This document shows, piece after piece, positions 27,186 to 57,603 of a DNA stretch of 64,000 bases. A program made the position numbers and the translations under genes. Location of the stretch: positions 2,666,001-2,730,000 of the forward strand of contig CAUYUJ010000001.1 in assembly GCA_963575745.1 (NCBI GenBank), in the 5' to 3' direction. Position 1 is the stretch's first letter, and each line of letters begins with the position of its first letter. Under the pieces are notes generated by a model that saw nothing but the letters and a program-made list of their open reading frames with translations, did no database searches and was not told the origin of the DNA. The stretch comes from Prorocentrum cordatum. Its lineage: Eukaryota.

Positions 27186-27418
27186 TAAGCATCAGGGTCG
27201 CAGGAGGCGAGGAAGGCTCGACCGAAACGCCTGGCTCGCCCGTTCCGCCGGCCTCGGGGCGCGACAGGGAGGAGTTATCTATCAGGAAAAGGAATGGAGG
27301 AGGAGGTTGGGGAGGAGGAGGAGGAAGAGGAGGAGGAGAAGGAAAGGGAGGAGGAGGGGGGGGGAGGAGCAGGAGGAGGGGGAGGAGGAGGAGGACGACG
27401 AGGAGGAGGAAGAGGAGG

Positions 27419-27440
27419 TCCGTAGCCATTTTGGCTCAAG
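27419..27440 (+). other. Exact dinoflagellate spliced-leader exon (DinoSL) at LINE-A 5' end
   Basis: TCCGTAGCCATTTTGGCTCAAG matches the DCCGTAGCCATTTTGGCTCAAG consensus; no GT SL-intron follows, so it is not an SL RNA gene. Confidence 0.97.
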
Positions 27441-27462
27441 TCCGGAGCCGTTTTGGCACAGG
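27441..27462 (+). other. Degenerate relict spliced leader in tandem behind the intact SL
   Basis: TCCGGAGCCGTTTTGGCACAGG, 18/22 identical to the SL directly before it. Confidence 0.85.
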
Positions 27463-27479
27463 ACCTGACCTTACTGGCA

Positions 27480-28868
27480 ATGGGGAGCAGCGGCCCCCAC
27501 AGTGCCCCTCGTTTGCCTGGTCAGACGAGGACTTCTGGCGAGTTTTGTGAGCTCCTGTTGGGGCATTCCCTTCGGCATCACGTCCCGATGGTGCCAGCCC
27601 CTTTCCCGCATGCGCCCTGGGTCAAGCCGCAGGGTGATGGCGAGGGATGGTCTATTGCGAGAGGTCGCCGCGGCCAGGCTCAAGTCTCGAGCTTCGCCTG
27701 CCCATCCTGCGGTTGCAAGAAGAGCAGCGTCAATGCCTCGCATTGCAAGCACTGTGCTCACCCTCTCCCTCGTCTGCTTCATGGTGATGGGCCACCAGCT
27801 GGTGGTCGCTGGGCCACAGCTGGCCCCCCTGGCTTCTGGTTCGGGAACGGCTTCAGCGGCAAGGGGCCCGTCTTTCAGAACTTCGGGGGCAAAGGGGGAG
27901 GCCGTGGGCCCAGTGGCAAGAGCAGAGGCAAGGGCTACTTCGGAGGCGACCAGACGATGTGGGATGTGCTGGCCCGTCAAGGAGATGAGCGTGCTGGCGG
28001 AGCAGCAGGAGGCCCCCCTCCTCTTCCTGTGGGACCAGTGCCTGCCATCACTGCGTCCGAGGCCAAGGCCTTGGGCGAATCGCTCCAGAAGGCGGGTGAT
28101 GTTGGAGCGGCTGCCAAGTACCTTGACATGGCGAAGCATCTGGAAGCGGCAGCAAAGCCCGTGGTTGTCTCGGACCACACGCGTATGCAGCAGGCTCACT
28201 CCATGGTGCGCAAGCTGGAGAAGCAAATGGAGCAGCAGCTGGGCCGTGTCACGAGGCTTCGGGAACAGCTCGTCGAAGCGGAAGCTTCGCTACGTTCGCT
28301 TCGTGTTCATCTCGACCAGGCGGATTTGGACTACAAGCAGACGCTGGCGGCCTTGCAAGGGCCCCCTCAGCCCACGGGGGAGCGGACTCAGTCGATTTCT
28401 TTCAAGCTCGAGGATTTGGTGGCAGGCGATGTGGATTTTGCCAAGATCATCGACTGCAGCCACATGCTGGAGGATCTCACGACGGACAATGATGTGGACG
28501 TGGCCGACCTCGAGCAGTTCCAGAAAAGGAAGGGGGACCTCTCGTCTGGCGCCACCAAGTTGGCCAGGGACCTCTTCGCCCAGGTCGCATCGCATGCCAA
28601 GGCTCTTCGTGAACAGCATGAAGCTCATCGACTTCGTGTGGTGGCTAAAAAGCGGAAGACCACGGAGGGTGAGGTTGTCGGAGGTTATCCTGAGGATGCT
28701 GCTGCCGCGGCTGGGGCTGGAGCAGGGGCGCCTTCTGAGGGTGCCAAGGCCGCTGCGTCAGCTGCGGGGACGGCCGAGGCTGGCCAGGCCTCGGCTGCTC
28801 TGCAAGAGGACATTCGAGCCAAGGCCGACCAGGCTCTCAAGGACTCTGAGCCCCCTGCTGCGTCTTAG
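27480..28868 (+). CDS. LINE-A ORF1 (putative nucleic-acid-binding/chaperone protein)
   Basis: Intact ORF from the first ATG after the SL; C-x2-C...C-x2-C zinc finger (FACPSCGCKKSSVNASHCKHC), GKG-rich segment, coiled coil (MVRKLEKQMEQQLGRVTRLREQL). Confidence 0.8.
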   Translation: MGSSGPHSAPRLPGQTRTSGEFCELLLGHSLRHHVPMVPAPFPHAPWVKPQGDGEGWSIARGRRGQAQVSSFACPSCGCKKSSVNASHCKHCAHPLPRLLHGDGPPAGGRWATAGPPGFWFGNGFSGKGPVFQNFGGKGGGRGPSGKSRGKGYFGGDQTMWDVLARQGDERAGGAAGGPPPLPVGPVPAITASEAKALGESLQKAGDVGAAAKYLDMAKHLEAAAKPVVVSDHTRMQQAHSMVRKLEKQMEQQLGRVTRLREQLVEAEASLRSLRVHLDQADLDYKQTLAALQGPPQPTGERTQSISFKLEDLVAGDVDFAKIIDCSHMLEDLTTDNDVDVADLEQFQKRKGDLSSGATKLARDLFAQVASHAKALREQHEAHRLRVVAKKRKTTEGEVVGGYPEDAAAAAGAGAGAPSEGAKAAASAAGTAEAGQASAALQEDIRAKADQALKDSEPPAAS

Positions 28869-31800
28869 AGGCGGCGGGGGGCAGGAATCTGAGGGCGGGG
28901 ACCCAGGTTTGAAACCCTCCTGGGATCTTTTTAATTTTTTAGCCTCGAGAGTGTCTGTGATAGGCTCCAGGTCTCAGGCCTCTGGGGTTCGTCTCTCCAA
29001 GCGTTTAAGGTGTTTGTTTGGGTTTTGCCATCTCGGGGGCTCGTTCGACGCCCCGCTCTCCTGTGCTGAAATTCGGGTGCCCCCAGACAGCCCAGGAGCC
29101 TCTCGCATTTCCTCTCTGCCTCTGCCCGGTGCGGACGTGAAGCAGCATTGCGTGAAGGCTGGCGAAGCTCTGCGTGAAGGTTCTCCAGTCGCACGATTGC
29201 CGCAATCCGATGCCCTTTTTCCTGGTGCCAGCTCCGCCAGGGCCTGGTCCTGCATGAGGCCCGTCCCAGATGACGAACGGCTTCCAGAGACCTCAGCCCC
29301 CACGCCAGCTGCCCAGGGTGCTGCCGATGGCTGCATCAGGCTTGACGAGGGTCTTCTCGTGACTACAGTGAACGCCAACTCCTGGGGCACCCTCAAGAAC
29401 TTTCTTTCCTCGGCCAGTTCGCATGTGGTTATCGCTCAGGAACATCGGCTTAAAGATCCCTGTGCGCTGGACCAGGCTTCGAAGTCGTCCAAGTTTCTGG
29501 GATGGAAAACGCTGTGGGCGTCAGGACTGCTTGGAGAGGGAGGTGGCGTCTCGTCGGGAGTTTGCGTCTGTGTTCGAGATGGACTTGGGCTTTTCGAAGC
29601 TGCTGCGAATTCTGTTCTCGTTCCTGGTCGAGCTATCGCCACCATGGTTCACGTTCCTGGTTGTGCCCCGTTTTGTGTCTGCAGCCTCTACTTGGTCCAC
29701 AGTGAAGGTCTCTCGGATTCCACTAGAGAAACGTTGAGGGTTGTCGGGGAATTTTTAGACTCCGTGGGTTGTGAGTTTATCGTGGGGGCCGATTGGAACA
29801 TGGGTCCCGAGGTCATCGAAGCTTCCGGGTTTGGCAAGAAGCTTAGGGCCAGTACGATTGTTCCTGAAGGTCACACCCACTTCCCCAGCAGGGGCCCTCC
29901 TGTTCGGTTTGATTTTTTCGTTGTGTCGGAGGCTCTCAGCCTCTGTCTCAAGAGTGTCTATGTTGAAGGTGACTCCAGCATCACTCCACATCGCCCAGTG
30001 TCGCTTCGTTTTCACAGCTCCCTGGGCGATCTCAAGGTTCTTGCCTTCCGCCAGCCCCCTTCGTTGCCCGTGCTCCCTCCTGTTGGCCCTGCGCCCAAGT
30101 CTGGCGACTGGAGTGCTGCGCTTGGTTTGGCCGAAGAAGCGTTTGGGGCGGTCTCGAACGGGGATGGGGAAAAAGCGCGCAGGCTTTTGAGCATCGGATA
30201 CAAGTTTTGGGCTGATGCTGCGGAAAAAGACCTTGCCAACTTCCTGGGGGCCGATCTCAAGGTTTTGGGGACTAGGGGCAAGCGGCCCCAGGTTTTCTGG
30301 AAGTCTGTGCTCCGCCCAGCGGGGCGTGAGAACGATCCAGGTTTACGGTCTATCTCCTGGCTGTGTAATCAGCTTCGTGCAGTTAGGTGCTATCTCTCGG
30401 ATTCGGTCTTGCAGGAGGCTGGGCGACAGGTGCTCAACTCGATCCTCCAGCCTCCGTCGGCCGTGGCGGCGCAGGAGAGCTCTGAGTTCCACTCGCTCTT
30501 CAAGGCCAGTGCGGCCCTAGCTAGATGCGCCTTTTCTCCTGTGCTGGATCCTGAGCTCGGCTCTGATCTGGACGACCTGATCGATCAGGTAGCTCAAGCC
30601 GTCGCCGCTGCTAGGGTCACCGCTGCGAATGCCTCGCGGCTAGAGTGGCCAGAGTGGGTGCGTACGGGCATTGATGCTGGTGGTCGCAACGCTCAGAGGG
30701 CCATCAAAGACCCTGAACCCTGGAAACCCTCCACCACCTTATCCAGATGTGGTACCATCGTTTGCGACCCAGTGTCTTTACTGCAGGCCGAAGGCGACAA
30801 GTTTGCGTCTATTTGGGGCAATGACAAAGGCATTGGTGTGGGCCATGACCTTTTGCCCCATGGGCGCATTTTAGAGCCTGCCGAGCTCCGATTTTTTCCA
30901 AAAAGTATCGTTCCTCCTCGGCGGCGAGCGTTGATGGATTCCACTGTCGGCATTTTAGTCTTCTCCCCGATGAGGCTTTGCATGCCCTGGCCCTGTGGTT
31001 TGCTGTTTGGGAAGCCACTGGCGAGTTGCCCAAGCAGCTCTCGTGGGTTCTGATGGCCTTGTTGGCCAAGCCGACGGGTGGGTTCAGACCCATTGGGGTC
31101 TTCCCGAGCCTGTACCGCCTTTGGGGTCGCGCCCGTCGTCAGGAGGCTCTTCAGTGGGAGCTCACCTACCCCAGAAAGTACTGGGCTGCTGGGGCCAACA
31201 GAGGAGCGGGGGATGTTGTTTGGAGGCAGGCTTTCAGGGCTGAAGCGGGCACTCGCAAGAGAGAGGTGTCGGCTTCCATTTTCTGGGATCTCAGGAAGTA
31301 CTATGAGCACATTAATCTGAGGTACCTATGGCAGCAGTGCGTGCACTTTCATTTCCCGTTACCTCTGGCGAGACTGGCCATCAGGGCGTATTCGTGTGCT
31401 CGCTTTCTGGCCCTCGGGGGCATCATCCAGGGCCCTTATTTCGTTTCCAAAGGTCTGGTGGCGGGTTGTTCTTTTGCGACCAGCCTCATTCGCGTTTTTG
31501 CCATGCAGGCTTTCGATGAGGCCCTCGCTTCGGTTCCCAAGGGCCCAGGAGCTTTGACCGACTTCGACGCCTACGTCGATGACCTTAGTCCCAGCTGCAC
31601 GGGACCTGCTAAGGTTGTAGTTGCCAGCCTCACGGCGGGAGCCAAGACGCTCCACCGAGCCATCACGGCGACGCTCGAGTGCAAGCTGGCCATGGACATA
31701 GTGGGAATGATCAGCAACTCCCCCGATGTTTCCAGAAAACTCACTGAGGCCTTGGGGCCTCTTGTTGGACCAGCCTGCTCTCGGGTTACCAATCTGGGTT

Positions 31801-33869
31801 CCGATTTCACTGCGGGCAGACCTGTTCGCTCCAAAGGGCGCTCGGCCAAATTGAAATCTAGAGCTGCGGCTGCTCTGAGGAAGACCAAAAAGCTGAAGGG
31901 CCTCCATCAGGTCCTGGACCGCAAGTGTTTGAAGGTCTTCGCGGCGGGACCGATGGCGGGAGCCGTGTACGGCTCTGACTTGTATGGGATTTCGGGCAGG
32001 GAGCTTCTTAATCTCAGAAGGATGGCCATGTCGACGGTTAAGCCCAGAGCCCAGGGCAGGTCCCTCAGTGTCTTGTGTCTTCTCTCGGATGACCCTACTT
32101 GGAGGGGCTGTTGCGCGCCTGTCATCCGCTGGGCCAAGGAGGTCTGGACCCTGCACACTCATGGGTTTCCCTGGACGTTGAGCTGGGCCGAACTAAGGGA
32201 CGGCTGGAGCGCTGTCTTTGCGTCGGATGACCACTCGTGGTCCAAAGTGGCTGGGCCGATTTCTGCCCTGCGTATGACCTTGTACAGGCTGGGCTGGACC
32301 ATGCCCAATTTTTGCGCCTTTGTTGACGACTTTGGCCGCGAAATCTCCTTGACCCTGTCGTCCCCTAAGCTTGTCAAGCTTTACTGTAAGGAAGCTCATC
32401 TTCGGGGTCTTGAAAGGGAGTCGGGGGACAAATACGGTTGTGGTTTCAGACTTTGCTGGGACGTGGTCAAACAGCTGATGTCTTCCAGGAAGGTTTCTAG
32501 CAAAACCAAAGGTTGGATCCGAGCTCAGGCCACGAGAGCTTGCTGGACGGCAAGCGATGTGGCAGCTGCAGGGTAAGACTTTTCTGACAAGTGCGCGCTG
32601 TGCGGCAAGGACCGCGACACCCTCTTCCACAGGCTCGTCGTGTGCCCGTCTGTGTAGTCTGTGAGGGAAGCGGTGCTTGACAAAAGTATTCAGAATGAAG
32701 CGTTGGAGCTAGGTGCAGATCATGTCGACATGTGTCTGTACTTGCACGGTGCCGTCAAACATCCTGGAGATTATGCCCCACCGCCACTCACTGAAGGAGG
32801 TAATAGCCTGGAATGGTTCGTCGATGTTCTTCCTGACCCTGGGGACCTTGCTGCTGCTCCCTCTATTCCTCCCTCCGCGGGGCTCTGGGGGCACCTCTTC
32901 ATGGATGGCTCGTGCCATCGTCATGTAGTGTGTGAACTCTCTAGGGCTGGCTGGGCTGTTGTCATGGTTTCATGCTCGGGTGAGCGCCTCGGGGTTTTGA
33001 ACGGTCCTCTGTGGGCCCCGTGGCCTCAGACGCCCCAGGGTGCCGAGTTTGGGGCCCTGGCCTGGACCGCTGTGCAAACCGAAGGCCCTGCCCTGTGTTA
33101 TTCTGATTGTGCTAATGTGGTTCATTTAATGAACCTTGGAGCTGCCGACGGCGTCAGCGCCAGGCGGCAGTATGCGGGCCAGATCATTCAAGCTAGGCAC
33201 TACTTCGGCACCAACCTAGTCTCCTTAGATAAGGTTGAGGCCCACAAAGATGCGGACGAGGAAGGGCTCTCCTCGCACGAGAGATTCGTGCGAAGAGGGA
33301 ACTTCTTCGCCGACGTCTACGCGAAGGAGGGTGCAAAGCAGCACCCCTCCATGTCCCCAACGGAGCAGGAGGCCCTCGATCACCAGATTCTAGTATCAAG
33401 GGCGATCTTGCTTGCGGGAGCGGAGCTCTTGCCACTTTGGCCGAAGTTGGAGTTTCGAGGTCTGTTGCGCGGCCCTCCGCTGCTCGACTCAAAGGCCCCC
33501 ATTTTAGAGCTCGTCCACGACTGGTCTCAACAAGGTTCCTCCTGGCGGTGTCGTGTGTGTCTGCGCGGTTCCCGTGCGAAGGCCAAGCCGCTGGGAGGAA
33601 CGTGCCCTGGGCAATCCCGTTTGGACCAGGGTCTGTTGGAGAGACTAGGCCATCGAGTCATTGCCTTCCCTTGCAGTGACAATGGCCACCTGTACTTGTG
33701 CATGTCGTGCAAGTTTTATTCTAGCGATGAAAAGGTCCTGGGTTTGTCCCGCAAGTGCGGGCCCCCCACGGAGACAGGTTTCAGAAACTTGAGACGGCTC
33801 CGAAAAGGACTGCACCCCGATACGAGGGGTGTCTCGGTCGATATCGACGAATTCATCCCGCTTTTATAA
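28869..33869 (+). pseudogene. LINE-A ORF2: APE endonuclease, reverse transcriptase, zinc knuckle, RNase H, C-terminal Cys/His motifs
   Basis: APE: TVNAN, AQEH, GADWN, RFDFF, PHRPV. RT: RPIG, WDLRKYYE, GLVAGCS, YVDD. Knuckle: CALC...H...C. RNase H: FMDGS, GAE, YSDC, KVEAH, GNFFAD. Lesions: 1-nt loss in the T run at 30892-30897 and stops at 32574-32576 (TAA) and 32655-32657 (TAG). True start unresolved because the frame is open back to 27502. Confidence 0.92.
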
Positions 33870-34008
33870 TTACAGGCAATTTGTTTGCCCTCAGTGCGCC
33901 TCTGGCTGTTGGAGCAAGCTGTCACTTTCAGAGGCATGAATGTTGCATTCAAACGAAAGAGGAAGAGGAGGAGGAACAGGGGGGGGAGGAGGAGGGGGAG
34001 GACGACAC

Positions 34009-34079
34009 TACTACTACTACTCCTTCTACTCCTACGACTCCTACTACTCCTACTACTCCTACTACTCCTACTACTACTC

Positions 34080-34138
<59 letters not shown>

Positions 34139-34142
34139 GCTG

Positions 34143-34174
<32 letters not shown>

Positions 34175-34224
34175 GCTGCTACTACTACTACTACTACTAC
34201 AACAACTACTACTACTACTATACT

Positions 34225-34284
<60 letters not shown>

Positions 34285-34296
34285 ATACTACTTCTT

Positions 34297-34327
<31 letters not shown>

Positions 34328-34333
34328 GATGCT

Positions 34334-34372
<39 letters not shown>

Positions 34373-34617
34373 GCGCACTCCTACTCCTACTACCACTACC
34401 ACTACGACTACTACTCCAACTGCTCCTACTACTCCTACTCCTACTACTACTACTACTACTATTACTACTACTACTACTACTACTACAACTACTACTACTA
34501 CCACTACTACGACGACGACGACTACTACGACTGCTACTACGACGACGACGGCTACTACTAATACTACTCCTACTCCCACGCCTACTCCTACTCCTACTCC
34601 TACTCCTACTCCTACTC

Positions 34618-34659
<42 letters not shown>

Positions 34660-34795
34660 ATCATAATAATAATACTACTGCGGCTACTACTACTACTAAT
34701 TTTACTTATTCGACTTCTCCGGCCACTACTACTACTACAACTACTACTACTACTACTACGACTACCACGGCTACTACGACTACGACTACCACGAG

Positions 34796-34840
<45 letters not shown>

Positions 34841-34890
34841 GATTGCTACTACTACTACTACTACTACTACTGCTACCACTACCACTACCA

Positions 34891-34948
<58 letters not shown>

Positions 34949-35085
34949 GACTGCTACTACTACTGCTACCACTATTACTACTATTACTGCTAATGCTACT
35001 GCTACCTACGACTAGGACTTCTACTACTACCACGACGACGAACTGTAATCACAATTCCAACTACTACCACTACTACTATTACCAT
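34009..35085. repeat. (CTA)n microsatellite
   Basis: Direct reading. Confidence 0.97.
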
Positions 35086-35688: not shown

Positions 35689-35876
35689 CGGCAGGTTCGT
35701 GTCGTGCCGACCCCGGCGTTGGTTTCTGACACCGCAGGGATCGTTCAACCTTGAACGATCGGCCGCTGCCGCAACGTCCAATCGTTCAACATCGACCGAT
35801 TCTGGGTCGCCGTCGGCGTTCAACCTTGAACGTCGGCGGCGGGGTCGCCGCTGGTCGACACGACGCAAACCTACCG
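35689..35876. mobile_element. 188-bp MITE, copy 2
   Basis: Same length and TIRs as 20819-21006; TA at 35687-35688 and 35877-35878; flanks unrelated to copy 1. Confidence 0.85.
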
Positions 35877-39233: not shown

Positions 39234-39249
39234 CTGATGGGTCCAGGAG

Positions 39250-43442: not shown

Positions 43443-44902
43443 GAGAGAGAGCGATCCACCGCCGCTTTACTGCGGATTTTTTCTCCCCCTCTTCCTCTGG
43501 AACCCGCCCCCCCTGCTGGACCGCCCCCCCCCTCCCCTCGCAAAACCGCCCCGCCCCTAACCCCCCCGCTCCCCCTCCGGAAAACTGAGGGGGGGTACTA
43601 TCGGTTCGACCCCCCCCCCTCCAGAAAACCGGGGGTGATAACTACCGGTTCGAACCCCCCCAACCCTCTCCAGATAACCGGGAGGGGTCACTACCGGTTC
43701 GAACCCCCCCCCCACTCACCGCCGGCAAACGACTCCCGGGTCCCCACCACCGTCCGCACCACATCCCCCACTGCTGTCCCAGCACCACTGTCCCCGCCAC
43801 CTCTGTCGCCACTGTTCCCACCACCGTCCCCACTGCCCCCACCATTGCCCCCACCACTGTCGCACTGTGCTCATTGTCCCCACCACTTTTCCCACCACTG
43901 TCCCACACTCCCCACTATCCCAACTGTCCCCACTGTCCCACTGTCCCCACTGTCCCCACGGCTGTCCCTCTGAGCTGTCCCACTGTCCCCACCACTGCCC
44001 CCACTGTCCCCACCAATGTCACCACTGTACCTCTGTCCCATCGTTCCACCACCATCCTCGCAACCGCCCTCACCACTGTCCCCACCACCACTGTCAACAC
44101 CACTGTCCCACTGTCCCCACCACATCCCCCCTGTCCCCACACCACTGTCCCCACCACCACCGTCCCCACCACTGTCCCACAGTCCCCACCACTGTCCCAC
44201 TGTCCCCACTGTTCACACCATTGTTCCCGCTGTTCCCACCAGTGCCCCCCCCCATCAGTGTCTCACTGTCCCCACTCTCCCCACCATTGTCCCACCACGG
44301 TCCCACTCTCCCCACTTCCCCCACGGTCCACACCACTGTCCCACTGTCCCCACTGTTCCCACCACTGTCAAACTGTCCTCACTGTCCCCGCCGCAGTGCC
44401 ACTGTGCTGTTCCACTATCCCCACTGTCCCCACCACTGTCCCACTGTCCCCACCACTCTCCCCACTGTACTACTGTCCCACCACAGTCCTCACCACCGCT
44501 TTCACCACTGTCCCCACCACTACGATTCCCACCACTGTCCCACTGTCCCCGCCGCTGTCCCGCTGTCCCCTCGCCACTGTCCTCTCACCACCACCGTCCC
44601 CACCACTGTCCGCACCACTGTCCCACTGTCCCCACACAACTGTCCCCACCACCACCTTCCCCATCACTGTCCCAGTATCCCCGCTAATGTCCAACTGTCC
44701 CGAGGAGCGGGAATTGTTTACCGGCGGCGAAGGGAGGGGGGGGGTCGAACCTGACCCCCCCCCGGTTCTCGAGGGGGGTGGGATTCGAACCGGTAGTGAC
44801 CCTCCCCGGTTTTCGAGGGGGGGGGGGGGGACGGGCTGGGAAACCCCACTGACCCCCCGGTGTTCCGCCAGCAGCCCAGCAGCGGTAGAACACGCTCTTT
44901 CG
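43443..44902. mobile_element. Foldback/TIR element with long imperfect arms around a ~1 kb (CCCCACTGT)n-like minisatellite
   Basis: GGGTCACTACCGGTTCGAA and CGCCGG(C/T)AAAC in 43590-43740 recur inverted in 44710-44815; outer ends GAGAGCG..ACCGC / GCGGT..CGCTCT. Confidence 0.7.
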
Positions 44903-45526
44903 CATCTCGGCAACCCACGTAGGTGCCACGATTTCAGCGCGGCAATTTCTACGTAGCGGCCGGCTGACACGCACTGGAAGTGCAGGTGTTCTTCTGCACC
45001 CAGCCCAGACAGAAGAGACCGCCAAGGGGTGCCGCGCCTCCAACACTGGTCACCAAAACCACGGCGACCTACTATCATCGTCCTACCAGAAGAAATACTG
45101 AACACGGGACGGAGGGGCTTTTTCAGCCTCAGCCACGAAGAAGTTCAACGCTCTAGATCCAAGGAACGGCCCGAAAACCAGAGGCCTCCTGGGCCCAAGG
45201 CTCTGCTTCTTTCAGCGCCTTGACTCTAATCCACCCTCGTTTTCTGCCTCCCCCCAAAGTTCGCTGCAAATCGGTTTCCTTCCTACCCCGTTCCTGCTCG
45301 GGGAAGACGGGCTACCGCGAGCGGACGCGGCGCAGCGACTTGGGAGCGCGGGACAGTCGCAGTCGGTGTAGGTGTTGCGTCGGCACCACGGTGGGTAGGA
45401 AAGAAGCCGAGGAGGAGCAGGAGAAGGTAGAGCCTGAGAAGGAGTCGAGCGTCGAACATGAAATGAGAGGCGGTGATGAGTATGCTGTGATGATGAGGAT
45501 AATGAGGAAGAGCAGGAGGAGGAGGA

Positions 45527-45557
<31 letters not shown>

Positions 45558-46949
45558 GGAGGAGGAGGAGCAGGAGGAGGAGGAGGAGGAGGAGGAGGAG
45601 GAGCCCAGCGTGCCGAGGGGTTCGTCAGCCGCGCTAGCCACGGGGCGACCGCGCCTTGTCGACACCGAGGCCGACGAGAGGCGAGGCGGGTCGTGCGGGG
45701 GCGGGCCTGGACGAAGCAGCTGCACAGGTCGGCGTCGTTGCCGACGGGGCGGCCAGCGGCCGAGACATAGTTTCAATCAGAGGCTGGTGAGAGGAGAGCG
45801 GTGGCGGCGGGAGCCGCGGCTGGCGGAGGGGGAGGAGGACAGGCGAGACGGCAGAGGGCAACAGCAAGGCAGTCTCGAGCGGAGGAGGGGACGGGGAAGA
45901 GATGGGGGCGGTCGAAAAGATATAGCGGCGAGTGCGCCCAGCAGCTGGGGTGCACGAGATTCGGGTGGGTGGGTCAATCCTGAGACCGTGGGGAAAATTC
46001 AGAGAGGCGTGGTCACTCGATGGGTCGGGCGACGGGGTGACGGCGGGAAACAGGGAAGGCACAAACGCGGAGGGAGGGGGGGCAGGCGGGGGGCAAGCAG
46101 AGGCAGGGGCAGAGCTCAACGGAGCGAGGGACGAAGGGAGAGAGGAGATGGAAGCTCGCTCTAATATAGGCGCAGGATGCACGTGCAAGAGAGGCGAGAT
46201 GACAGGATGAAAAGAGAAAATGTTCTCGACTGGGGGCTCATGACGGGAAAGCGATCCCGCCGCGGTACTGGGAGAGGCAGGATATAGCCTCTGGGAGCAC
46301 GGAGACGCCGAGGGAGCACAGCAGGAGGCAATCCGCGAGGAGGAGGCCGCCACCCATGGAGCGGTCGGGGCAATCGACGACGTCAGAGTAGCCGGAATCG
46401 ATGAGCAGGGCGGGCGCGGGGAAGACAAGGCCATAGGCGCCGTTGACAGTCCGTGAAGCGAGCGGCCGACCGCAATCGACACCACAGAGCTGGATGGCAG
46501 CGCCTCGCAATTTACTCGAGCCTGGGGCGGCGGGCTCGAGGAGCACCCACGGCCAGGACTTTGCGATCTGACACCGACGGAGGGGAAAGGCCGCGCCTCG
46601 AAATTTACTCGAGGAGCCTGGGAAGGCGGGCTCGAGGAGCACCCGCCACCAGGACTTTGCGATCTGACGCCTTCAGCACCAAAGACGGGAAGAGACCGAG
46701 CCAGCTCGTCGCAATTTGCTCCAGATGCCTGCTCGGGCGGGTTCGAGGGGCACCCCCTGGCAGGACTTGGCGTTCTGACAGCATGCACCACCGCATCAGG
46801 ACGGAAGTCGAGCATGACGAGGTCGTCCGAGTCGTCCGCATCCTGCGAGGAGCAGGGAGATGATGATCCAGACGTCGCCGAAAGCGGGGGCATGGTCGCA
46901 CTGCAAGAAGAGGAGGAGGAATAACTCGGCGACGAAGATGAACTTGAGG

Positions 46950-49900
46950 AGGAGCTTGCAGGTCGGGGCACACGAGGATGCCAGTGGGGAGCAAGTGAAG
47001 CTCGTTCCTCCTCCGACGCACGAGATGGGTGCGCGAGACGCATCGCCCTCACTCCCGCCAGAGCGCAGGCGTGGATCTGCTGTGCAGAGAGCGGCCACTC
47101 ACGGATGGTGCGGGCCTCGTTGTACATGTTGTACGCGGCCGTGAGCAGCGAGAACGAGGAGAACGACGGAGACGCCAGACCCCAGCGAGAAAACCATTCG
47201 AGCGGGAAAGGACGTGCCAAGGCCCGTCTGAGAGCACGGTGCATGGGTGGGCATCTCGCATAGTGACGGAGGGGGTCGAATCGCTGCATGCATCCGAACG
47301 CACAAGGTCTCTGCGTGATGGATGCCACAGCCAAGTGCGCCCATCGGATGGCCCTGGGCGCCCCCCACCTCTCCAGCTGCACCCACGCGTCGAGACCGAA
47401 GGTGCCGAGAGGAAGACGAAATACTTGGGCCAGCACTGCCAGCTCGGGTTGAAGGACCGAGCGCGGGATCCAGGAGAACTGTGCAACGTACGAGAGAGTA
47501 GTAACAGCACGGGAATTGTATAACTGGGCGGACTGGCTGGCGTGAGTGGTGCCACGGCCAATAGCTTGAGCCCGCAAACGCAGCTTGGTGAGCGGGTCGG
47601 CCCACGAACGATCGGGAGCGGCCCCAGGACCCAACCAGATGCCCAGGTAGAGCAGACAGTCGACCACCTCAAAGGAGGACCACTCGGGGACCCAGTAGGA
47701 GATCTCCTGGAGGACGCGGGTGGCGAGCTCGGGGGAGAAGGGCCCGCAGAGAGGGACCGCCTTGCACTTGCCGGCCTTCAACGCGAGGTTGGCCATGCCA
47801 GAGGCCTTGGACATCACCCCGAAGACACGAACGAGGTCGGCAATCGCGGAGAGCGCGCCCCCAATGTCGTCCGCACAGGCCCGCACGAGGCCAGACAAGG
47901 GAAGCTCAACCACTTGGACCAGCTCAGAGAGGAAGGCAGCCGTACTGAACGCAAATGACGAACCCGAGAGAGCGCAGCCCTGAATGATGCCGCTGTCAAT
48001 CCAATAAACATGTTCCAGAGTCCCCTGCACCATAGCAACCCCGTCGATCGCAGCGCACAGGAAAGCGACGAAGCCGAGGAAACGATCAGGGAGCCCGAGA
48101 GTCCGAAGAGCGAGGGTCATGAAGCCTTGGTTCAGGGACGGGAAGGCCTGGCCGAAGTCCAGGGAGTACAAGAGCGGGATATCCAGGGAACCATGGGGAA
48201 TGACCGAGAGCATCCTGGCCGAGGCGTCGAGCTCGATGATATTCTCACCGAAGTTGCGGCGGGGGATGAACCCGCGCTGGCAAGAGGGGATGAGGTCCAG
48301 GGCAGGGCGAACAGCACGATTCATCGTCGCAGAGATGAGCTTGATGTCACAATTCCTAAGACCGAGGACACGAACTTTGTCTGGGGCCCGCTCGCAGCCC
48401 CCTGATTGCAACTCGTTGTCAGTGACATTTTTCGGCAGGAAGATCTGAATAGTGTCCGATGCAGAGGCGAACAGGAACTGGCCATCTCCGATCCACTCGA
48501 GAGCACCCAGAGAACCTCCACAGCAATAATTGGGTGAGCCTGCCACGCAGCATGTGGAAAAGCGTCGGGGCCAGGAGCGGAATGTTGAGCGCCACGAATA
48601 GCAGCACGGAGCATGGCACGGGAATGTGGGGGGAGATGAAGATCATCAGCACGGGGCAGGAGACGATGGAGGTAGGGGCGAGCAGCGTCTTCATCCCAAG
48701 GCTTCTTCCTGAAAATGGGGCCCCAGTAGTCGGTGAGGGCCGTCAACCGCTGGGGCGGGTCGGAGACAGTCTCGCCGCTCGCAAGACGAACACGCGAGAG
48801 AGAGACCCGACGATTCAGAGGTGACCACAATCTCGCTCTGCGCTCCAAGGCTCTGATCTGAAGTCTGATTTGAGCACGGTCCCCCAGACGACGACGGCGG
48901 GCTTCCAATTCCTCCATGGCGGCGGCCGCCGCATCAGACTGGATCTCATCGACCCAGGCATGGAACGAAGGAGGGTGCATCAGCTCAACCTTGCCAGCCC
49001 GCGCAACGATCATGTCCACAGCCACGCGATGTGATTCCTGAAGGCGGCGTGCAAGTGGAACGTCTTGACGCCAGACAACTCGTGCCAGTGCTCGTGCAAG
49101 CTGGAGAAGGGTGCGGGGATGATGAGGGCGAGCACGGAAGAGACGATCCCGAACTTCGGCAGAGGCGATTTTCAGCAGCTTTTTGTAGTGCTCGAGCTTG
49201 ACGGGCGGGGACATCTGGGACCAGTCGGAGGCTTTGATGAGGCCCTCGAGGCGCTGCTTGAACGCTGGCTCGTGGAAGATGCGCTTGGGAATGGCTCGCT
49301 CGCCCAGAACCCAGGGAGCCCTGGAGGCGAGAGAGATCAGCACGGCGGCATGGTCCGAGACGCATCTGCCCGACACTAACGCAGCCGAATCGACAGTCGA
49401 CGCCTGAACCACAAGTTGACACATCTGCCATCCCGAAAGCGGGCAAAAGAATCGATCGATGGACGATTCAGCATTCTCAGCACGCTCATAGCGCGATGGG
49501 GCGTCACTTTCAATCTCAAGCAGCGGGGCAAGAGCATCCCGCCACTGCGGAGCGCGGGCGTGGTGCTGCCGCGCGCTCCGCCGCGCAGCCGCTGCGGGCA
49601 TATGCAGCAGGACGGACTCGTGCGGGGAAAAATTGAAGTCGCCATTGACCGCGACCATGCGCGAGTCTGGTGCCCGCTCAGACGCAGCCCGAGCAGCACG
49701 GATATCTCGTGCAACACGAGCGACTTCTGCCAAAGAAAGACCATGACTGTGCACGTTGTACACCTGAAGGCACACATCTCCCAAAGATATATCAACCCGA
49801 AGAACGCGCCCAGGAACGAGAGGGACAGGCGGATGGGCGACAGCACCAGGATGGAGGGGAGGAAGTACGACTGCGACGCCCCCACGGATGCTGCCGCCAG

Positions 49901-50170
49901 CGTCAGCGTCACAAAAGCCAGAACGCACAGTAAGATCACGTGCCACTGTGCCCAGGAAAGAGACAAGTTGGCGATGATCCTGGTGGACCTCCTGGAGGGA
50001 GAGGGCCGTCTCAGACAGGCGGAGCTTGATGAGGTACTGGCGCTTCAGATCTGCGTTCTCTCCTCCAGCTTGCAAGAGCGCCCTGGCGTTCCAGGAGACA
50101 AAGCGAAGCGGTCTCGCCGATGAGGAAGAAGACGGCGAGGAGGAGCGAAAGAGGGGGCACGCGCTAAAGA
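46950..50170 (-). pseudogene. LINE-B ORF2: APE endonuclease + reverse transcriptase + C-terminal zinc knuckle
   Basis: APE: VSWNAR, LQEVH, GDFN, SIDRFF, SDH. RT: SAPGPD, QRGF, LDFGQAFPSL, GIIQGCALS, CADD, YLG. Knuckle: CAFGC...H...C. Frameshift near 48500. Confidence 0.9.
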
Positions 50171-51555
50171 GACCACTGGCTGGTCTCGACTGGGTGGGAG
50201 ATCTCCTTGGTCGCCTCGCGGAGGCGGGCGACGTCCATGTGGTTGTGCTCGAGCTTCGGGATGTCCCAGTAGATGACGGGGGGGGCGCCCCCCGAGGCGA
50301 CCTCGATCTGCATGGCCTTGTCCCAGCCAACCAGCAGGGCGCCACGCTCACGGTCGGAGTAGAGCCGCTTACCAAGGTAAGCCTCTTCCACCAGTCTGCG
50401 CGCTCGACGGAGGACGATATCCTGCTTGATCTGCTTGGGGCTCTTGTCGGGGCCGAGGTGGATGCGGCAGTGCACATCTCCAGGCGGGGTAGTCCAAAAT
50501 TATTTCCATTCTTTGCCTTCGCGTAAGTTGGCAAGGACACGGTCGACCTTGCGGGAAGCGACCCCGACGGGGCCCTTGAACTTGATCTCGAATCGCTTGC
50601 ATGGGACCGTGCCTTTGGCAGCGATCTGGTAGTCGTTGTTGGCACTCTCAAAACCGATGGAGGACAGCCAGGGAGCCAGCACCTCACGAACACTTTCCAA
50701 TGACGAGGGGCGCTGGGAGATAGCCACCACCATGGTCGTGTCAATGTCGCGGTTGAAGCCAGCGGGTACTTGAGACTGGGGGCGAGGACGAGCCTCAGCG
50801 AGAGCGAGTTCTTTCCTGAGCTCGGCCATCTCCCGACGGATGTCCACGAGGTCCTGGTCGTGTTTGGCGATGCTGGAAGTGTGGGCGTCGATGACGCCCT
50901 TCTGCTGGTCGATCTGGGCCTGCAGCCTGCGCGACAGGGAGTCCAGCTGCGGTGTGGCGACCTTGCGCACATCGGCCTCGAGGGTCTCGGTGTGGGCTTG
51001 AACCAGGGCTCGGAGGTTCTCCACAGCAGCGAGCAGGGGCTTGTTGCTCTCGGCGGCGGTCTTGGCAATGGAGTCGCCAAAATCCTCTTTGATGGAGTCA
51101 AACTCGGCACGGCACAACTGGCGAATGAAGTCTTCGTAGCCCTCGGGCATCTCGTCGTCAAGGGCGGGAGGCAGCTCAGCATCAGCGTCGTCATGAGGAG
51201 CCTCGCCAGGGAGGGCACGACGTTTCTGCGGATTGGGGTCGGTGAAGCGAGACGGAGCAGCTCCTTTGCCTTGAACTTTTCCTTTGCCGGACTTGACCTC
51301 CTGGGACGGGAAGGTCGGTGCATCCTCCAGCTGCTCGAGCTGCGAGGTCGTGAGCTCATCACCGCGAGGGCTCGCCACCATCACAGCAAGTTGACTGGTC
51401 GAGGGAAGAGACGGTGCGGGGGCCCAACTCCCGCGGTAAAGGCACAGAAGAGCGATCAGAAGACTGATGAGCGGGCTGGAGAGTGGCCTCAAAGCGGAAC
51501 CTCCCTCGCGCTCAGGTGTCGCCCCGAAAGACCCGCGGTCGTCGGGACGGTTCAT
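50164..51555 (-). pseudogene. LINE-B ORF1 (coiled-coil protein) with one premature stop
   Basis: ORFs 50500..51555 and 50164..50475 are in the same frame, split by TAA at 50500-50502; coiled coil SRRLQAQIDQQK...DIRREMAELRKELALAE; ATG candidates at 51555 and 51381. Confidence 0.75.
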
Positions 51556-51558
51556 GTC

Positions 51559-51580
51559 CTTGAGCCAAAATGGCTACGGA
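51559..51580 (-). other. Exact DinoSL at LINE-B 5' end
   Basis: Plus strand reads CTTGAGCCAAAATGGCTACGGA, the reverse complement of TCCGTAGCCATTTTGGCTCAAG. Confidence 0.97.
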
Positions 51581-52297
51581 GGAGGAGGAGGAGGAGGAGG
51601 AGGAGAGGGGAGGGGGGGAGGAGGAGGAGGAGGAGGAGGAGGAGGAGGAGGAGGAGGAGGAGGAGGAGGAGGACGAGGAGCAGGGGATGTATGAGAACCA
51701 ACTGCAACGGCAACCGACGCTGCCAGCGGCATGCCCTATGATACCGGCAGGACGACGAAAACGAAGTTTACGACATTTTAGACCAGAGAAACCTCGGTCT
51801 GCTTTTCGGCCAACTCTTGCGCAAACGTTCGGCCAACTTCGCCCGTTTAGCCCCGCGCACCTACGGGTACTCAGGCCAGGGCAGCTCAGCGGAAAACCGC
51901 CGAAAGCAAGTTGGGCCGAGGCGAAGACCAGAGGTCCCTTCATGATCGGCACAACTGTAAAGACAAGCAGCTCAGCAGGCGGGGGGGGTGGACATCGCAG
52001 CAGCGGCACTGGCGGTGTCAGCCAATGCCCAGCCATCGGCGGCCACTGCTGCGGCACCAGCGGCACCACAGCGGCACCGGCGGCCCCACTGATCTTTGAA
52101 TTCCGACGTCACGAAACAAGCTTAACATCTCACAAAACCTCGACCAGAGCACTGGACCCCATCATTCCCGCGGCAATTTTCGTGCTCGATCGATCCGTGA
52201 GGGTCCCGTGGCCAGATACACGGCACCCGCCTGGAAGTATCTTGGCGAAGGACCCAAACATATGCAGCTGTGAGCACCGCATTGTGGGTACCGCTCT

Positions 52298-54487: not shown

Positions 54488-57603
<3,116 letters not shown>

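What the first reader, a model, noticed from the sequence alone, without database searches (positions are those of the whole stretch)
27406..51600. Two different LINE families both begin exactly with a complete host spliced leader: candidate trans-splicing-dependent retrotransposons
Seen: LINE-A (APE-RT-RNase H, +) and LINE-B (APE-RT, -) have dissimilar ORF1s and RT subtypes, yet each starts at nucleotide 1 of a perfect 22-nt DinoSL (27419-27440; 51559-51580) directly against flanking microsatellite. No SL-intron follows. Established: DinoSL is trans-spliced onto nuclear mRNAs, SL relics mark dinoflagellate retrogenes, and CRE/SLACS/NeSL elements insert into SL RNA genes, which is a different arrangement. 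Inference: these elements were copied from fully SL-capped mRNA. They may need no internal promoter, because trans-splicing could release them from any read-through transcript and reset the 5' end each cycle. I cannot verify whether this is already published.
Basis: partly seen in the sequence, partly recalled or inferred. Interest (0 to 1): 0.9.

Follow-up and report, generated by a model that had tools for sequence, protein, structure and literature searches.

The report
Jumping genes capped with host leader
Two unrelated jumping genes (LINEs) in a dinoflagellate genome each begin with the short leader that the host cell splices onto its messenger RNAs, which shows they were copied from spliced host-style messages and probably rely on the host's splicing machinery, not a promoter of their own, to make their RNA starts.

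Summary
A perfect 22-nt DinoSL lies at 27419-27440 (+) and 51559-51580 (-). These are the only two hits in the window, against 0 expected. Each sits between a GGA/CCT microsatellite and the first ORF of a LINE.

New here:
- LINE-A carries a second, decayed, full-length SL (18/22) directly behind the first.
- LINE-A is a high-copy family in an independent run (3,996 contig pieces at 80% identity or more). One contig starts within 3 nt of SL nt 1.
- A third, intact LINE on an environmental contig (L138) has the same layout: (GA)n, then SL nt 2-22, then ORF1, then APE-RT-RNase H, then (GA)n.
- Genomic DinoSLs in environmental contigs abut simple repeats about 15 times more often than random positions do.

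Both window copies are frameshifted, but their relatives are intact.

The claim that these are cDNAs of trans-spliced LINE mRNA is well supported. The claim that they depend on trans-splicing and lack a promoter is a sound but untested inference. No RNA evidence and no genome-wide census were possible. Target-site duplications (TSDs) cannot be shown.

I found no paper that describes this in 7 full-text searches. It is a new variant of the known SL-tagged retrocopy. This scan had not noted it before.

The parts
27296..27418 (.). (GGA)n array, 5' flank of LINE-A, ending directly at SL nt 1
   Evidence: TRF; sequence. 97% purine, 27 AG dinucleotides in the last 100 nt.
27419..27440 (+). Perfect 22-nt DinoSL, the first bases of LINE-A
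   Evidence: 0 mismatches, 0 expected by chance.
27441..27462 (+). Relic SL: full-length and decayed (18/22, TCCGGAGCCGTTTTGGCACAGG). Its terminal AG is changed to GG.
   Evidence: chance 3.6e-8.
27480..28868 (+). LINE-A ORF1 (462 aa): CxxC...CxxC zinc-finger-like motif, Gly/Lys-rich stretch, coiled coil. The ATG at 27480 is not conserved in other copies.
   Evidence: P0001 is 81% identical. 27481 T>G in 12 contigs of X1. The CPSCGC motif is shared with L138 ORF1, whose RanBP zinc ribbon passes Pfam.
28870..31050 (+). LINE-A ORF2, N-terminal part with the APE-like endonuclease (frame 2). The window copy loses this frame near 30894.
   Evidence: Atlas look-alikes carry Exo_endo_phos (scores 0.93-0.95). 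No hit in Pfam or PDB sequences. Other copies have an extra G after 30894 (table 4).
30849..32573 (+). LINE-A reverse transcriptase (frame 1)
   Evidence: RVT_1 at 23.8 bits, below the cut-off of 29.6. Relatives are P0004 (67%) and P0006, which carries RVT_1. 28.8% identical over 260 aa to the L133 RT, E 7e-18.
32577..32657 (+). Linker with a CCHC-type motif (CALCGKDRDTLFHRLVVCP), read in a different frame from its neighbours. This points to further indels in this copy.
   Evidence: Sequence. P0004 reads RT-CCHC-RNase H as one open frame.
32658..33869 (+). LINE-A RNase H-like domain and C-terminal part
   Evidence: Atlas: RNase_H clusters at 0.94, 0.93 and 0.90. 29% identical over 110 aa (E 0.004) to the L138 region that passes Pfam RNase_H. 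No direct Pfam or PDB hit. The structure model was unusable.
33959..34006 (.). GGA-rich block directly 3' of LINE-A, followed by 1 kb of (ACT)n
   Evidence: Not demonstrably a TSD.
51581..51684 (-). (CCT)n array, 5' flank of LINE-B on the element's strand. 99% pyrimidine, no AG.
51559..51580 (-). Perfect 22-nt DinoSL, the first bases of LINE-B. The ATG follows 3 nt later.
50500..51555 (-). LINE-B ORF1 (351 aa, coiled coil)
   Evidence: P0003 is 87% identical and named Prorocentrum cordatum.
48324..50498 (-). LINE-B ORF2, APE part
   Evidence: Exo_endo_phos at 29.2 bits, above the cut-off of 24.5.
45634..48642 (-). LINE-B RT plus a Ser/Pro-rich C-terminal part. A frameshift separates it from the APE part in this copy only.
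   Evidence: RVT_1 at 31 bits, above the cut-off of 29.6. Matches human L1 ORF2p chains at E 0.005. 2,927 relatives at E<=1e-3; the best, P0009, carries APE and RT in one protein.
45504..45604 (-). (CTC)n array directly 3' of LINE-B
   Evidence: Not demonstrably a TSD.

Best explanation
Both elements are 5'-complete insertions of APE-type LINEs. They were reverse-transcribed from LINE mRNAs that had received the host spliced leader by trans-splicing, as ordinary dinoflagellate mRNAs do. The reverse transcriptase copied the RNA to its very end, so the 22-nt SL became the first 22 bases of the new DNA copy. Each copy landed inside a simple-sequence array.

The SL replaces everything upstream of the splice acceptor, so the transcription start and promoter that produced the RNA lay outside the unit that moves. 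A new copy can therefore be a source only if it is transcribed from its flank, by read-through or a neighbouring promoter, and trans-spliced again at or near its resident SL. Splicing at the SL's own terminal AG would restore exactly the structure seen.

Shown: the anatomy; its recurrence in three LINEs from two organisms; a second round of SL addition in LINE-A; and exclusion of an SL-gene context.

Inferred: the lack of a promoter in the element; the acceptor that is used; and what share of daughter copies can be sources. A few upstream-driven master copies would fit equally well.
For: - Perfect SLs lie at the 5' ends of two unrelated LINEs.
- SL-A is followed by a decayed full-length SL. 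An SL-bearing copy was therefore transcribed from upstream of that SL and spliced again. All 4 substitutions lie in the inner copy; the probability is 0.06 if the two copies were of equal age.
- LINE-B has 3 nt between the SL and the ATG, so its 5' UTR has almost no room for a promoter.
- The third element, L138, comes from a different organism (GC 0.70). It runs (GA)n, SL nt 2-22, ORF1 with a RanBP zinc ribbon (30.9 bits), then one open 2,536-aa ORF2 with Exo_endo_phos (36.6 bits), RVT_1 (43.3) and RNase_H (31.3), then A6, then (GA)n.
- LINE-A is a large family. In X1, 3,996 contig pieces were laid (99 at >=99% identity, 334 at 95-99%, 1,434 at 90-95%, 2,129 below 90%). Three metagenome runs gave 757, 189 and 492 pieces. 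X1 record 1 (563 nt) aligns from its 4th letter at 27422 through the relic and 5' UTR, with 39 differences and 12 gaps over 393 nt. That contig therefore begins at about SL nt 1.
- There is no SL intron and no SL on the 3' side. Rfam finds no RNA gene and no HDV-like ribozyme.
- The coding capacity is real. Relatives read APE-RT (P0009) and RT-CCHC-RNase H (P0004) as single frames. Other LINE-A copies carry the base that is missing at 30894.
Against: - There is no RNA evidence of any kind.
- No census of 5'-complete copies was possible. The laying tool masked 27295-27421, so the contigs do not show the junctions of other copies, apart from one record's start.
- The contig start is only a hint. 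Contigs also break at repeat borders for other reasons.
- Both window copies are dead (frameshifts), so they say nothing direct about active sources.
- TSDs cannot be shown. LINE-B's 5' flank aligns as well to an unrelated (CCT)n array (score 153, 93/99) as to its own 3' flank (153, 93/99). LINE-A's flank aligns better to unrelated arrays.
- LINE-A's relic is full-length, not the 5'-truncated form described for retrogenes. This needs an acceptor exactly at the old SL's first base, or another mechanism.
- LINE-B and L138 show no relic.
- Short downstream promoter elements inside the first tens of bases, as known from some insect LINEs (recalled), are not excluded.
- Among 126 SL loci from metagenome contigs, none had a detectable RT or APE downstream: tblastn gave 0, and Pfam on 80 of the 128 ORFs of >=150 aa gave 0. 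Most of these contigs are only 1-2 kb long.
Confidence: 0.7

Rival explanations
1. Inherited leader with an internal promoter. Each family captured an SL once. Since then the SL has simply been part of the element's DNA, which is transcribed from its own first base by an internal promoter. The promoter could be the SL's own TTTT(G) motif, which Song et al. proposed as a promoter element for retrogenes. Trans-splicing would play no part in the cycle.
For: Song et al. 2017 (PMC5585692; passages seen) report that TTT(T/G) of DinoSL relicts is retained upstream of retrogenes and propose it as a core promoter. Perfect SLs on recent copies are also expected under plain inheritance.
Against: - LINE-A's tandem SL still requires at least one trans-splicing onto an SL-bearing transcript that started upstream of the element.
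- The outer SL is 22/22 while the inner is 18/22.
- Three unrelated or distant LINEs would each need an independent capture.
- A genome-encoded SL at a transcription start would lack the SL RNA's own cap structure (general knowledge, not tested).
Confidence: 0.13
2. Template switching. At the end of reverse transcription the LINE enzyme jumped from the LINE RNA onto a free SL exon or another SL-bearing RNA. The SL would then be a chimeric add-on, like U6-L1 chimeras in mammals, and not the true 5' end of the LINE mRNA.
For: It could explain why LINE-A's two SLs are both full-length and abut exactly. U6-L1 chimeras are an established precedent (recalled, no call).
Against: - A switch onto SL RNA would copy its intron as well, and no intron is present.
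- Chimeras usually join variably truncated elements. Here all three elements start just upstream of ORF1.
- The two SLs of LINE-A differ in apparent age (0 against 4 substitutions).
Confidence: 0.05
3. Passive by-product only. These are LINE mRNAs that some other element's machinery copied in trans, exactly like host retrogenes. The SL would then say nothing about how the families normally propagate.
For: SL-tagged retrocopies of ordinary genes are abundant: over 20% of genes according to passages. Both window copies are defective.
Against: - LINE enzymes generally prefer their own RNA in cis (general knowledge).
- LINE-A is a large family, and one further contig starts at the SL.
- An intact SL-led LINE exists (L138).
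- This reading still implies SL-capped LINE mRNA.
Confidence: 0.08
4. Site-specific insertion into SL RNA genes (as in SLACS, CZAR, CRE and NeSL), a chance match, or an assembly chimera.
For: None beyond the presence of an SL next to a LINE.
Against: - There is no SL intron and no remainder of an SL gene on either side, and no Rfam RNA gene in the window.
- The endonuclease is APE-type, not restriction-like.
- Chance expectation is 0.
- The same junction type is seen on an independently assembled contig of another organism and in an independent run.
Confidence: 0.02

Closest known systems
DinoSL-tagged retrogenes ('recycled processed cDNAs', Slamovits & Keeling 2008; Song et al. 2017)
   Same: A genome-encoded DinoSL lies at the 5' end of an intron-less copy, and tandem SL relics record repeated rounds. 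These features are described in passages of PMC5585692, PMC6050394 and PMC12014239. Song et al. even found the GO term 'RNA-dependent DNA replication' enriched among SL-relict genes. RT genes with upstream SLs were therefore already in their set.
   Different: Here the tagged unit is the autonomous retrotransposon itself: two or three distinct LINEs with ORF1 plus APE-RT. The authors read that enrichment as activation of the retroposition machinery, not as LINEs that begin with the SL. LINE-A's relic is full-length, not the 15-nt truncated form. I saw no paper that states LINEs begin with DinoSL.
SL-gene-specific non-LTR elements (SLACS, CZAR, CRE, NeSL-1)
   Same: A LINE lies physically next to spliced-leader sequence in a trans-splicing host.
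   Different: Those elements insert into SL RNA genes, so SL-gene sequence flanks them on both sides. They carry a restriction-like endonuclease (recalled). Here a complete SL lies only at the 5' end, with no intron and no gene context, and the endonuclease is APE-type.
LINEs that free their RNA from co-transcripts with a 5' HDV-like ribozyme (R2; L1Tc with Pr77 and L1TcRz)
   Same: It works alike. The element's exact 5' end is generated by RNA processing, so transcription may start upstream of the element. The L1Tc ribozyme and promoter are known to me only from search-listing abstracts (PMC3383444, PMC1874656).
   Different: The processing is self-encoded (a ribozyme) and the transcripts are reported as unspliced. 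Here no ribozyme is found by Rfam, and the host's trans-splicing would do the cutting and capping.
Microsatellite-targeting LINEs (Waldo, Mino, Kibi, Koshi, Dong; recalled from the Kojima and Fujiwara surveys)
   Same: The same simple repeat brackets the copies on both sides: (GGA)n, (CCT)n and (GA)n for the three elements.
   Different: Target specificity across many copies was not testable here. Such arrays are common in this window, so simple abundance is an alternative.
SL-containing transposable elements in Schistosoma mansoni (PMC5832876)
   Same: The authors found 6 transposable or retrotransposable elements with an internal SL. [quoted passage not shown]
   Different: This concerns a flatworm SL. 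The authors offer it as a tentative aside and name assembly chimeras as an alternative. They give no element anatomy and do not claim dependence.

Membership tests
DinoSL-tagged retrocopy | Complete or partial DinoSL encoded in genomic DNA at the 5' end of the copied unit | tested here: met
   22/22 at both elements; 21/22 at L138.
DinoSL-tagged retrocopy | Not an SL RNA gene: no SL intron, no snRNA or 5S array context | tested here: met
   Sequences. Rfam gave 0 hits in 64 kb. The SL-gene intron start GTACACATTGGG quoted in PMC12584245 is absent.
DinoSL-tagged retrocopy | Tandem relic SLs from repeated rounds | tested here: inconclusive
   LINE-A has one relic, but it is full-length and not the usual 15-nt form. 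LINE-B and L138 have none.
APE-type non-LTR retrotransposon (LINE) | Reverse transcriptase domain | tested here: met
   LINE-B: RVT_1 at 31 bits, above the cut-off of 29.6. LINE-A scores only 23.8 bits, but is related at E 7e-18 to the L133 RT, which scores 43.3 bits.
APE-type non-LTR retrotransposon (LINE) | Apurinic-like endonuclease N-terminal to the RT | tested here: met
   LINE-B: Exo_endo_phos at 29.2 bits, above the cut-off of 24.5. LINE-A: Atlas look-alikes only (0.93-0.95, with 136-160 shared features, below the 170 guide value), so LINE-A alone would be inconclusive.
APE-type non-LTR retrotransposon (LINE) | Target-site duplications flanking the insertion | tested here: inconclusive
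   The flanks are the same microsatellite on both sides, but they align no better to each other than to unrelated arrays.
RNase H-bearing LINE group (I, Tad, R1, LOA, Ingi-like) | RNase H domain C-terminal to the RT, and placement in that clade on an RT tree | tested here: inconclusive
   The RNase H-like region of LINE-A is supported by the Atlas (0.94) and by 29% identity over 110 aa to L138's Pfam-verified RNase_H. No RT phylogeny was made.
SL-gene-specific LINEs (SLACS, CZAR, CRE, NeSL) | Insertion inside an SL RNA gene, with SL-gene sequence on both sides | tested here: not met
   The 3' flanks are microsatellite without SL or intron. There are only 2 SLs plus 1 relic in the window.
SL-gene-specific LINEs (SLACS, CZAR, CRE, NeSL) | Restriction-like endonuclease instead of APE (the feature is recalled) | tested here: not met
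   APE-type domain found.
Ribozyme-processed LINEs (R2, L1Tc type) | HDV-like self-cleaving ribozyme at the 5' end | tested here: not met
   No Rfam family reached its gathering score anywhere in the window. Divergent ribozymes could be missed.
Microsatellite-specific LINEs | The same repeat type at the insertion sites of many independent copies | not testable with these tools
   Only one copy of each family has readable flanks. No genome is held, and the junction region was masked.

The most novel reading that the evidence does not exclude
Dinoflagellate LINEs may be promoter-less 'trans-splicing parasites'. Host SL trans-splicing would cut their RNA out of whatever read-through or polycistronic transcript contains them and give it the cap. 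Each generation would thus rebuild a perfect 5' end without any element-encoded promoter or ribozyme.

The same enzymes, integrating at simple-sequence arrays, could be the long-sought machinery that makes the thousands of SL-tagged retrogenes. Those retrogenes show the same 'simple repeat then SL' junction. That would point to LINEs and not to the Ty1/copia LTR elements favoured in the literature (PMC6050394, passage).
Probability: 0.35. Interest if true: 0.85.

Novelty: new variant of a known kind. Interest (0 to 1): 0.66.

Why it matters
LINEs normally must carry an internal promoter or a self-cleaving ribozyme, because everything upstream of the RNA's first base is lost at each jump. A LINE whose DNA copy starts with the host's spliced leader shows a third solution: letting the host's trans-splicing define and cap the 5' end.

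It also bears on an open question in dinoflagellate genomics, namely which reverse-transcribing machinery produces the very large number of SL-tagged retrogenes. In environmental contigs, SL-tagged copies share the 'simple repeat directly before the SL' junction with these LINEs (13 of 83 sites against 17 of 1,660 random positions, p 1.6e-10). This makes LINE-mediated, microsatellite-associated integration a testable candidate.

In practice, the SL gives an exact marker for 5'-complete LINE copies. The decay of relic SLs could be used to date rounds of retrotransposition.

Tried and rejected
- **Whole-genome census:** no genome is held for this window.
- **RNA evidence:** no RNA holder was listed among the runs, so expression was not examined.
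- **Possible empty sites:** the joints 27277>33961 (X1, 1 contig) and 27278>33959 (X3, 1 contig) were considered as empty sites and rejected. The stretch 27295-27421 was masked as repeat, and both sides are GGA arrays. They more likely come from paralogous copies of the upstream repeat.
- **Depth profile:** depth along LINE-A is flat (67-239 per bin in X1), with no 5' decline. I do not use this, because the tool states that contig depth cannot rank parts of a gene.
- **TSDs:** one search suggested a 100-nt duplication for LINE-B. The control removed this: an unrelated (CCT)n array scores the same.
- **Polypyrimidine tract as built-in splice acceptor:** this holds only for LINE-B (99% pyrimidine). 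LINE-A and L138 have purine-rich flanks, so it is not a general feature.
- **An 84-85-nt intron at 32573-32657:** rejected. The stretch encodes the CCHC motif in another frame, and the relative P0004 reads through it.
- **Searches for more copies that found nothing:**
  - ORF1-A alignment in metagenome contigs: 231 pattern matches, 0 confirmed.
  - LINE-A RT alignment in genome contigs (81 matches, 0 confirmed) and in viral contigs (104 matches, 0 confirmed).
  - LINE-B RT alignment and the L138 RT in viral contigs: 0 confirmed.
  - tblastn of all LINE proteins against the 126 metagenome SL loci and against 94 loci from viral contigs: 0 hits.
- **Pfam downstream of metagenome SLs:** 80 of the 128 ORFs of >=150 aa were scanned. 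I left out 48, namely the AT-rich virus-like loci and overlapping frames. None carried RVT or APE; MORN, ArfGap, PP1, scramblase, HSP70 and HMG were found. Thirty were re-scanned at E<=0.05 and again none did.
- **PDB sequence search:** the LINE-A APE, RT and RNase H parts gave nothing meaningful.
- **Structure model:** the single-sequence model of the LINE-A RNase H part had pLDDT 41 and was unusable. No fold search was run.
- **Host genes in the window:** Pfam on 40 other ORFs found no host gene that could show the direction of neighbouring transcription.
- **Earlier notes of this scan:** there are none on this genome. One note on DinoSL in giant viruses exists.
- **Reading limits:** I opened no supplementary files. 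The retrogene lists in the supplements of Song et al. 2017 may already contain SL-led RT genes.

Full report
**1. What is in the sequence**

The 22-nt dinoflagellate spliced leader TCCGTAGCCATTTTGGCTCAAG occurs exactly twice in the 64-kb window, at 27419-27440 (+) and 51559-51580 (-). There are no other matches at up to 3 mismatches, and 100 shuffles gave none (sequences read).

On each element's own strand the SL is directly preceded by a trinucleotide array of about 100-120 nt: (GGA)n at 27296-27418 for the + element, and (CCT)n at 51581-51684 for the - element. It is followed within a few bases by a long ORF.

Neither SL is followed by an SL-RNA intron. Rfam finds no RNA gene of any family in the window.

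The best protein relatives are named Prorocentrum cordatum. The window's GC content (about 0.6) fits the 59.7% reported for that genome (PMC10666404, passage).

**2. The two elements**

*LINE-A (27419 to about 33958, +)*
- ORF1 runs 27480-28868. It has a CxxC...CxxC zinc-finger-like motif, a Gly/Lys-rich stretch and a coiled coil.
- A long second reading frame follows, which this copy breaks. Its APE-like part is in one frame up to 31050, and the RT is in another frame from about 30900. A CCHC motif around 32590-32650 is in yet another frame. An RNase H-like part follows at 32658-33866.
- Pfam sees only a sub-threshold RVT_1 (23.8 bits).
- The APE and RNase H assignments rest on three things: Atlas look-alikes (Exo_endo_phos clusters at 0.93-0.95; RNase_H clusters at 0.94, 0.93 and 0.90); the relative P0004 (67% identical), which reads RT-CCHC-RNase H-C-terminus as one frame; and 29% identity over 110 aa to a Pfam-verified RNase H in L138.
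- Other copies of the family carry an extra G after 30894, exactly where the window copy changes frame (table 4). That break is therefore copy-specific.

*LINE-B (51580 down to about 45605, -)*
- ORF1 runs 51555-50503 and is a coiled coil.
- The APE part scores Exo_endo_phos 29.2 bits and the RT scores RVT_1 31 bits, both above their cut-offs. A Ser/Pro-rich tail follows.
- A frameshift separates APE from RT. Relatives such as P0009 (67% identical) carry both in one protein.

*How the two compare.* They share no nucleotide similarity. At the protein level the RTs share 25% over 88 aa (E 0.049), and the ORF1s share nothing beyond coiled coil (no cross hits). 'RT subtypes' was not tested by phylogeny.

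**3.

- *A second SL in LINE-A.* Directly behind SL-A lies a second, full-length, decayed SL at 27441-27462 (TCCGGAGCCGTTTTGGCACAGG, 18/22). The chance for a given 22-mer is 3.6e-8. An ancestor that already began with an SL must have been transcribed from further upstream, received a new SL, and retrotransposed again. All four substitutions are in the inner copy, and one of them destroys its terminal AG.
- *Very short leader in LINE-B.* Only 3 nt (GAC) lie between the SL and the ATG.
- *The same array type on both sides.* LINE-A has GGA-rich sequence at 33959-34006, and LINE-B has (CTC)n at 45504-45604. I first read LINE-B's two 100-nt arrays as a target-site duplication. A control showed that an unrelated (CCT)n array at 25559-25658 aligns just as well (score 153, 93/99 in both cases). 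LINE-A's 5' flank aligns better to unrelated arrays than to its own 3' flank. TSDs therefore cannot be shown.
- *What the flanks do show.* The 3' flanks carry no SL. Other arrays of the same type in the window (25559, 54182, 54334) do not abut an SL. The SL came with the elements and not with the arrays.

**4. Evidence from outside the window**

*Run evidence for LINE-A.*
- One independent run of 'organism A' (X1) holds 30% of LINE-A's sampled words, and three metagenome runs hold 5-10%.
- Their contigs were laid on 27200-34006 at 80% identity or more. This gave 3,996 pieces in X1 (99 at >=99%, 334 at 95-99%, 1,434 at 90-95%, 2,129 below 90%), and 757, 189 and 492 pieces in X2-X4. LINE-A is therefore a large, diverged family.
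- X1 record 1 (563 nt, depth 28.9) aligns from its fourth letter at 27422, runs through the SL, the relic and the 5' UTR to 27814 with 39 differences and 12 gaps, and then goes on unlike the window. That contig begins at about SL nt 1. This is a hint and not proof, and the tool masked 27295-27421 for its junction tables.
- In most other copies 27481 is G, not T (262 of 269.7 depth, 12 contigs). The ATG at 27480 is therefore not the family's start codon.

*Environmental scans for the SL.* The pattern excluded an SL followed by NT, and so excluded SL genes.
GTDB genome contigs gave 10. Viral contigs gave 96 stretches, mostly giant-virus bins with AT-rich 'promoter plus SL' cassettes.
- One of the 10 genome-contig loci is a complete third LINE. 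It is a 9,096-nt, GC-rich contig binned into a bacterial MAG, fetched whole as L138. Its layout is:
  - 1-116: (GA/GAGACA)n.
  - 117-137: SL nt 2-22.
  - 123-1340: ORF1, with a RanBP-type zinc ribbon (30.9 bits, cut-off 27), a CPSCGC motif like LINE-A's, and a coiled coil.
  - 1358-8965: one uninterrupted 2,536-aa frame with Exo_endo_phos (36.6 bits), RVT_1 (43.3 bits), a CCHC motif and RNase_H (31.3 bits, cut-off 25.8).
  - After that: '...GGGTAAAAAA', then (GA)n, then unique sequence.
- Its RT is a distant relative of LINE-A's (28.8% over 260 aa, E 7e-18).
- The layout 'simple repeat, SL, ORF1, ORF2, simple repeat' therefore recurs in an intact element of another organism.
- Two short contigs look like further 5' ends of this kind, but they end before any RT could appear. 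L010 has an SL, two classical 15-nt relics and an ORF with a RanBP-like zinc finger and coiled coil. L065 has (AT)n, an SL and a similar ORF.
- No RT or APE was detectable downstream of the other metagenome SLs. Most of those contigs are 1-2 kb long.

**5. A general junction signature**

There were 132 distinct SL sites in the metagenome loci, and 120 of them had at least 25 nt upstream. Of the 83 that are not AT-rich, 13 have a simple repeat (period 1-6) within 3 nt of the SL. Random positions in the same loci gave 17 of 1,660 (odds ratio 18, p 1.6e-10).

Among the genome-contig loci, 4 of the 8 with enough upstream sequence do so: GT-rich, CAT, GA and AGAC repeats.

SL-tagged retrocopies in general thus tend to abut simple repeats at their 5' junction, as the three LINEs do. 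This fits one integration machinery that works at microsatellites. It does not prove it.

**6. How it most likely works**

*Shown.* These are 5'-complete cDNA copies of LINE mRNAs that carried the trans-spliced leader.

*Inferred.* Trans-splicing discards everything upstream of the acceptor, so the promoter used lay outside the mobile unit. A daughter copy can therefore be a source only when it is transcribed from its flank and spliced again.
- Splicing at the resident SL's terminal AG would rebuild exactly SL plus body. This is the state seen in LINE-B and L138, and in LINE-A for SL plus relic plus body.
- Use of the internal AG would instead give the 15-nt relics seen in L010.
- LINE-A's full-length relic needs an acceptor right at the old SL's first base. 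Its AG-rich (GGA)n flank could supply one, but this is not shown.
- LINE-B's flank is a 100-nt polypyrimidine tract without any AG, which would make a good acceptor context. LINE-A and L138 have purine-rich flanks, so this is not general.
- A few master copies driven from upstream would fit the data as well as many active daughters.

*Rivals.* These are an SL inherited together with an internal promoter (Song et al.'s TTTT motif idea), template switching, passive copying in trans, SL-gene targeting, and artefact. They are weighed in their own sections. The first is the only serious one, and a census would settle it.

**7. Comparison with what is known**

- *SL-tagged retrogenes* are well known (passages). 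Song et al. 2017 even report the GO term 'RNA-dependent DNA replication' enriched among SL-relict genes. They read this as activation of the machinery, and a later review favours Ty1/copia as the agent.
- *LINEs in Symbiodiniaceae* are described in the passages I saw as ancient remnants.
- *Search coverage.* I ran seven full-text searches and read passages of 15 papers. I found no statement that dinoflagellate LINEs begin with the DinoSL, and none linking DinoSL relics to microsatellites. The library holds open-access papers only, and I opened no supplements.
- *Nearest parallel in function.* This is 5' processing of R2 and L1Tc RNA by HDV-like ribozymes. L1Tc is reported to make unspliced transcripts from its Pr77 promoter in another trans-splicing host (abstracts in the listings). 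SLACS, CRE and NeSL are a different arrangement, and their defining features were tested here and not met.

**8. Verdict**

This is a new variant of a known kind. It is of real interest to transposon biology and to the open question of what drives dinoflagellate retroposition. It is also not wholly unexpected in an organism that trans-splices its mRNAs.

Noticed in passing
L001-L126 (metagenome contigs) and L127-L136 (genome contigs): Genomic DinoSL copies are strongly enriched for a simple repeat directly upstream. This holds for 13 of 83 non-AT-rich sites against 17 of 1,660 random positions (p 1.6e-10), and for 4 of 8 genome-contig loci. Repeat types include (TG)n, (CA)n, (CAT)n, (TC)n, (GA)n, (AGAC)n and (GGGT)n.
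   Followed up: partly
L138 (= G001 contig C12, 1-9096): A complete, apparently intact SL-led LINE (ORF1 plus a 2,536-aa APE-RT-RNase H ORF2) sits on a GC-rich contig binned into a bacterial MAG. It is evidently eukaryotic (dinoflagellate) contamination of that bin. It holds the only DinoSL in that 4.1-Mb genome.
   Followed up: yes
L010:114-1401 and L065:49-1347: Two short environmental contigs carry an SL followed by an ORF with a RanBP-like zinc finger and coiled coil, the same ORF1 build as LINE-A and L138. In L010 the SL is followed by two classical 15-nt relics. In L065 it is preceded by (AT)n. They are probable LINE 5' ends, but the contigs end before any RT.
   Followed up: partly
L139-L217 (viral contigs); also L002, L012, L034-36, L047-48 and others: Many exact DinoSL copies sit behind AT-rich '...TTTTA' sequences in giant-virus bins, sometimes several per contig and in short tandem cassettes.
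   Followed up: no
window 27200-27277: The sequence just upstream of LINE-A's (GGA)n array is itself multi-copy in run X1: 20-25 contigs differ at 27236, 27242 and 27247, with summed depth of about 120-157. It follows an 82-bp tandem repeat at 26551-27157. LINE-A probably sits inside or beside another repeat family.
   Followed up: no
window 34007-35030 and 54614-57604: Very long (ACT)n arrays of about 1 kb and 3 kb. The second adjoins (ACG)n, (TCC)n, (TCA)n and (CTC)n arrays. The window is unusually rich in trinucleotide repeats: there are at least seven GGA/CCT-type arrays.
   Followed up: no
window 94-115 (-): CCCGTAGCAGTTTGGGCTCAGG matches the DinoSL at 17 of 22 positions. It may be an old relic SL of another retrocopy near the window's edge.
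   Followed up: no
P0003: A public Prorocentrum cordatum gene model of 468 aa joins a LINE-B ORF1 relative (87% identical over 76% of the query) to an amino-acid-transporter domain (PF01490). This is probably an annotation chimera, or an exonised LINE fragment.
   Followed up: no
window 46496-46668: A 96-bp tandem duplication (1.8 copies) lies inside the Ser/Pro-rich C-terminal part of LINE-B's ORF2. This long tail has no recognisable domain.
   Followed up: no
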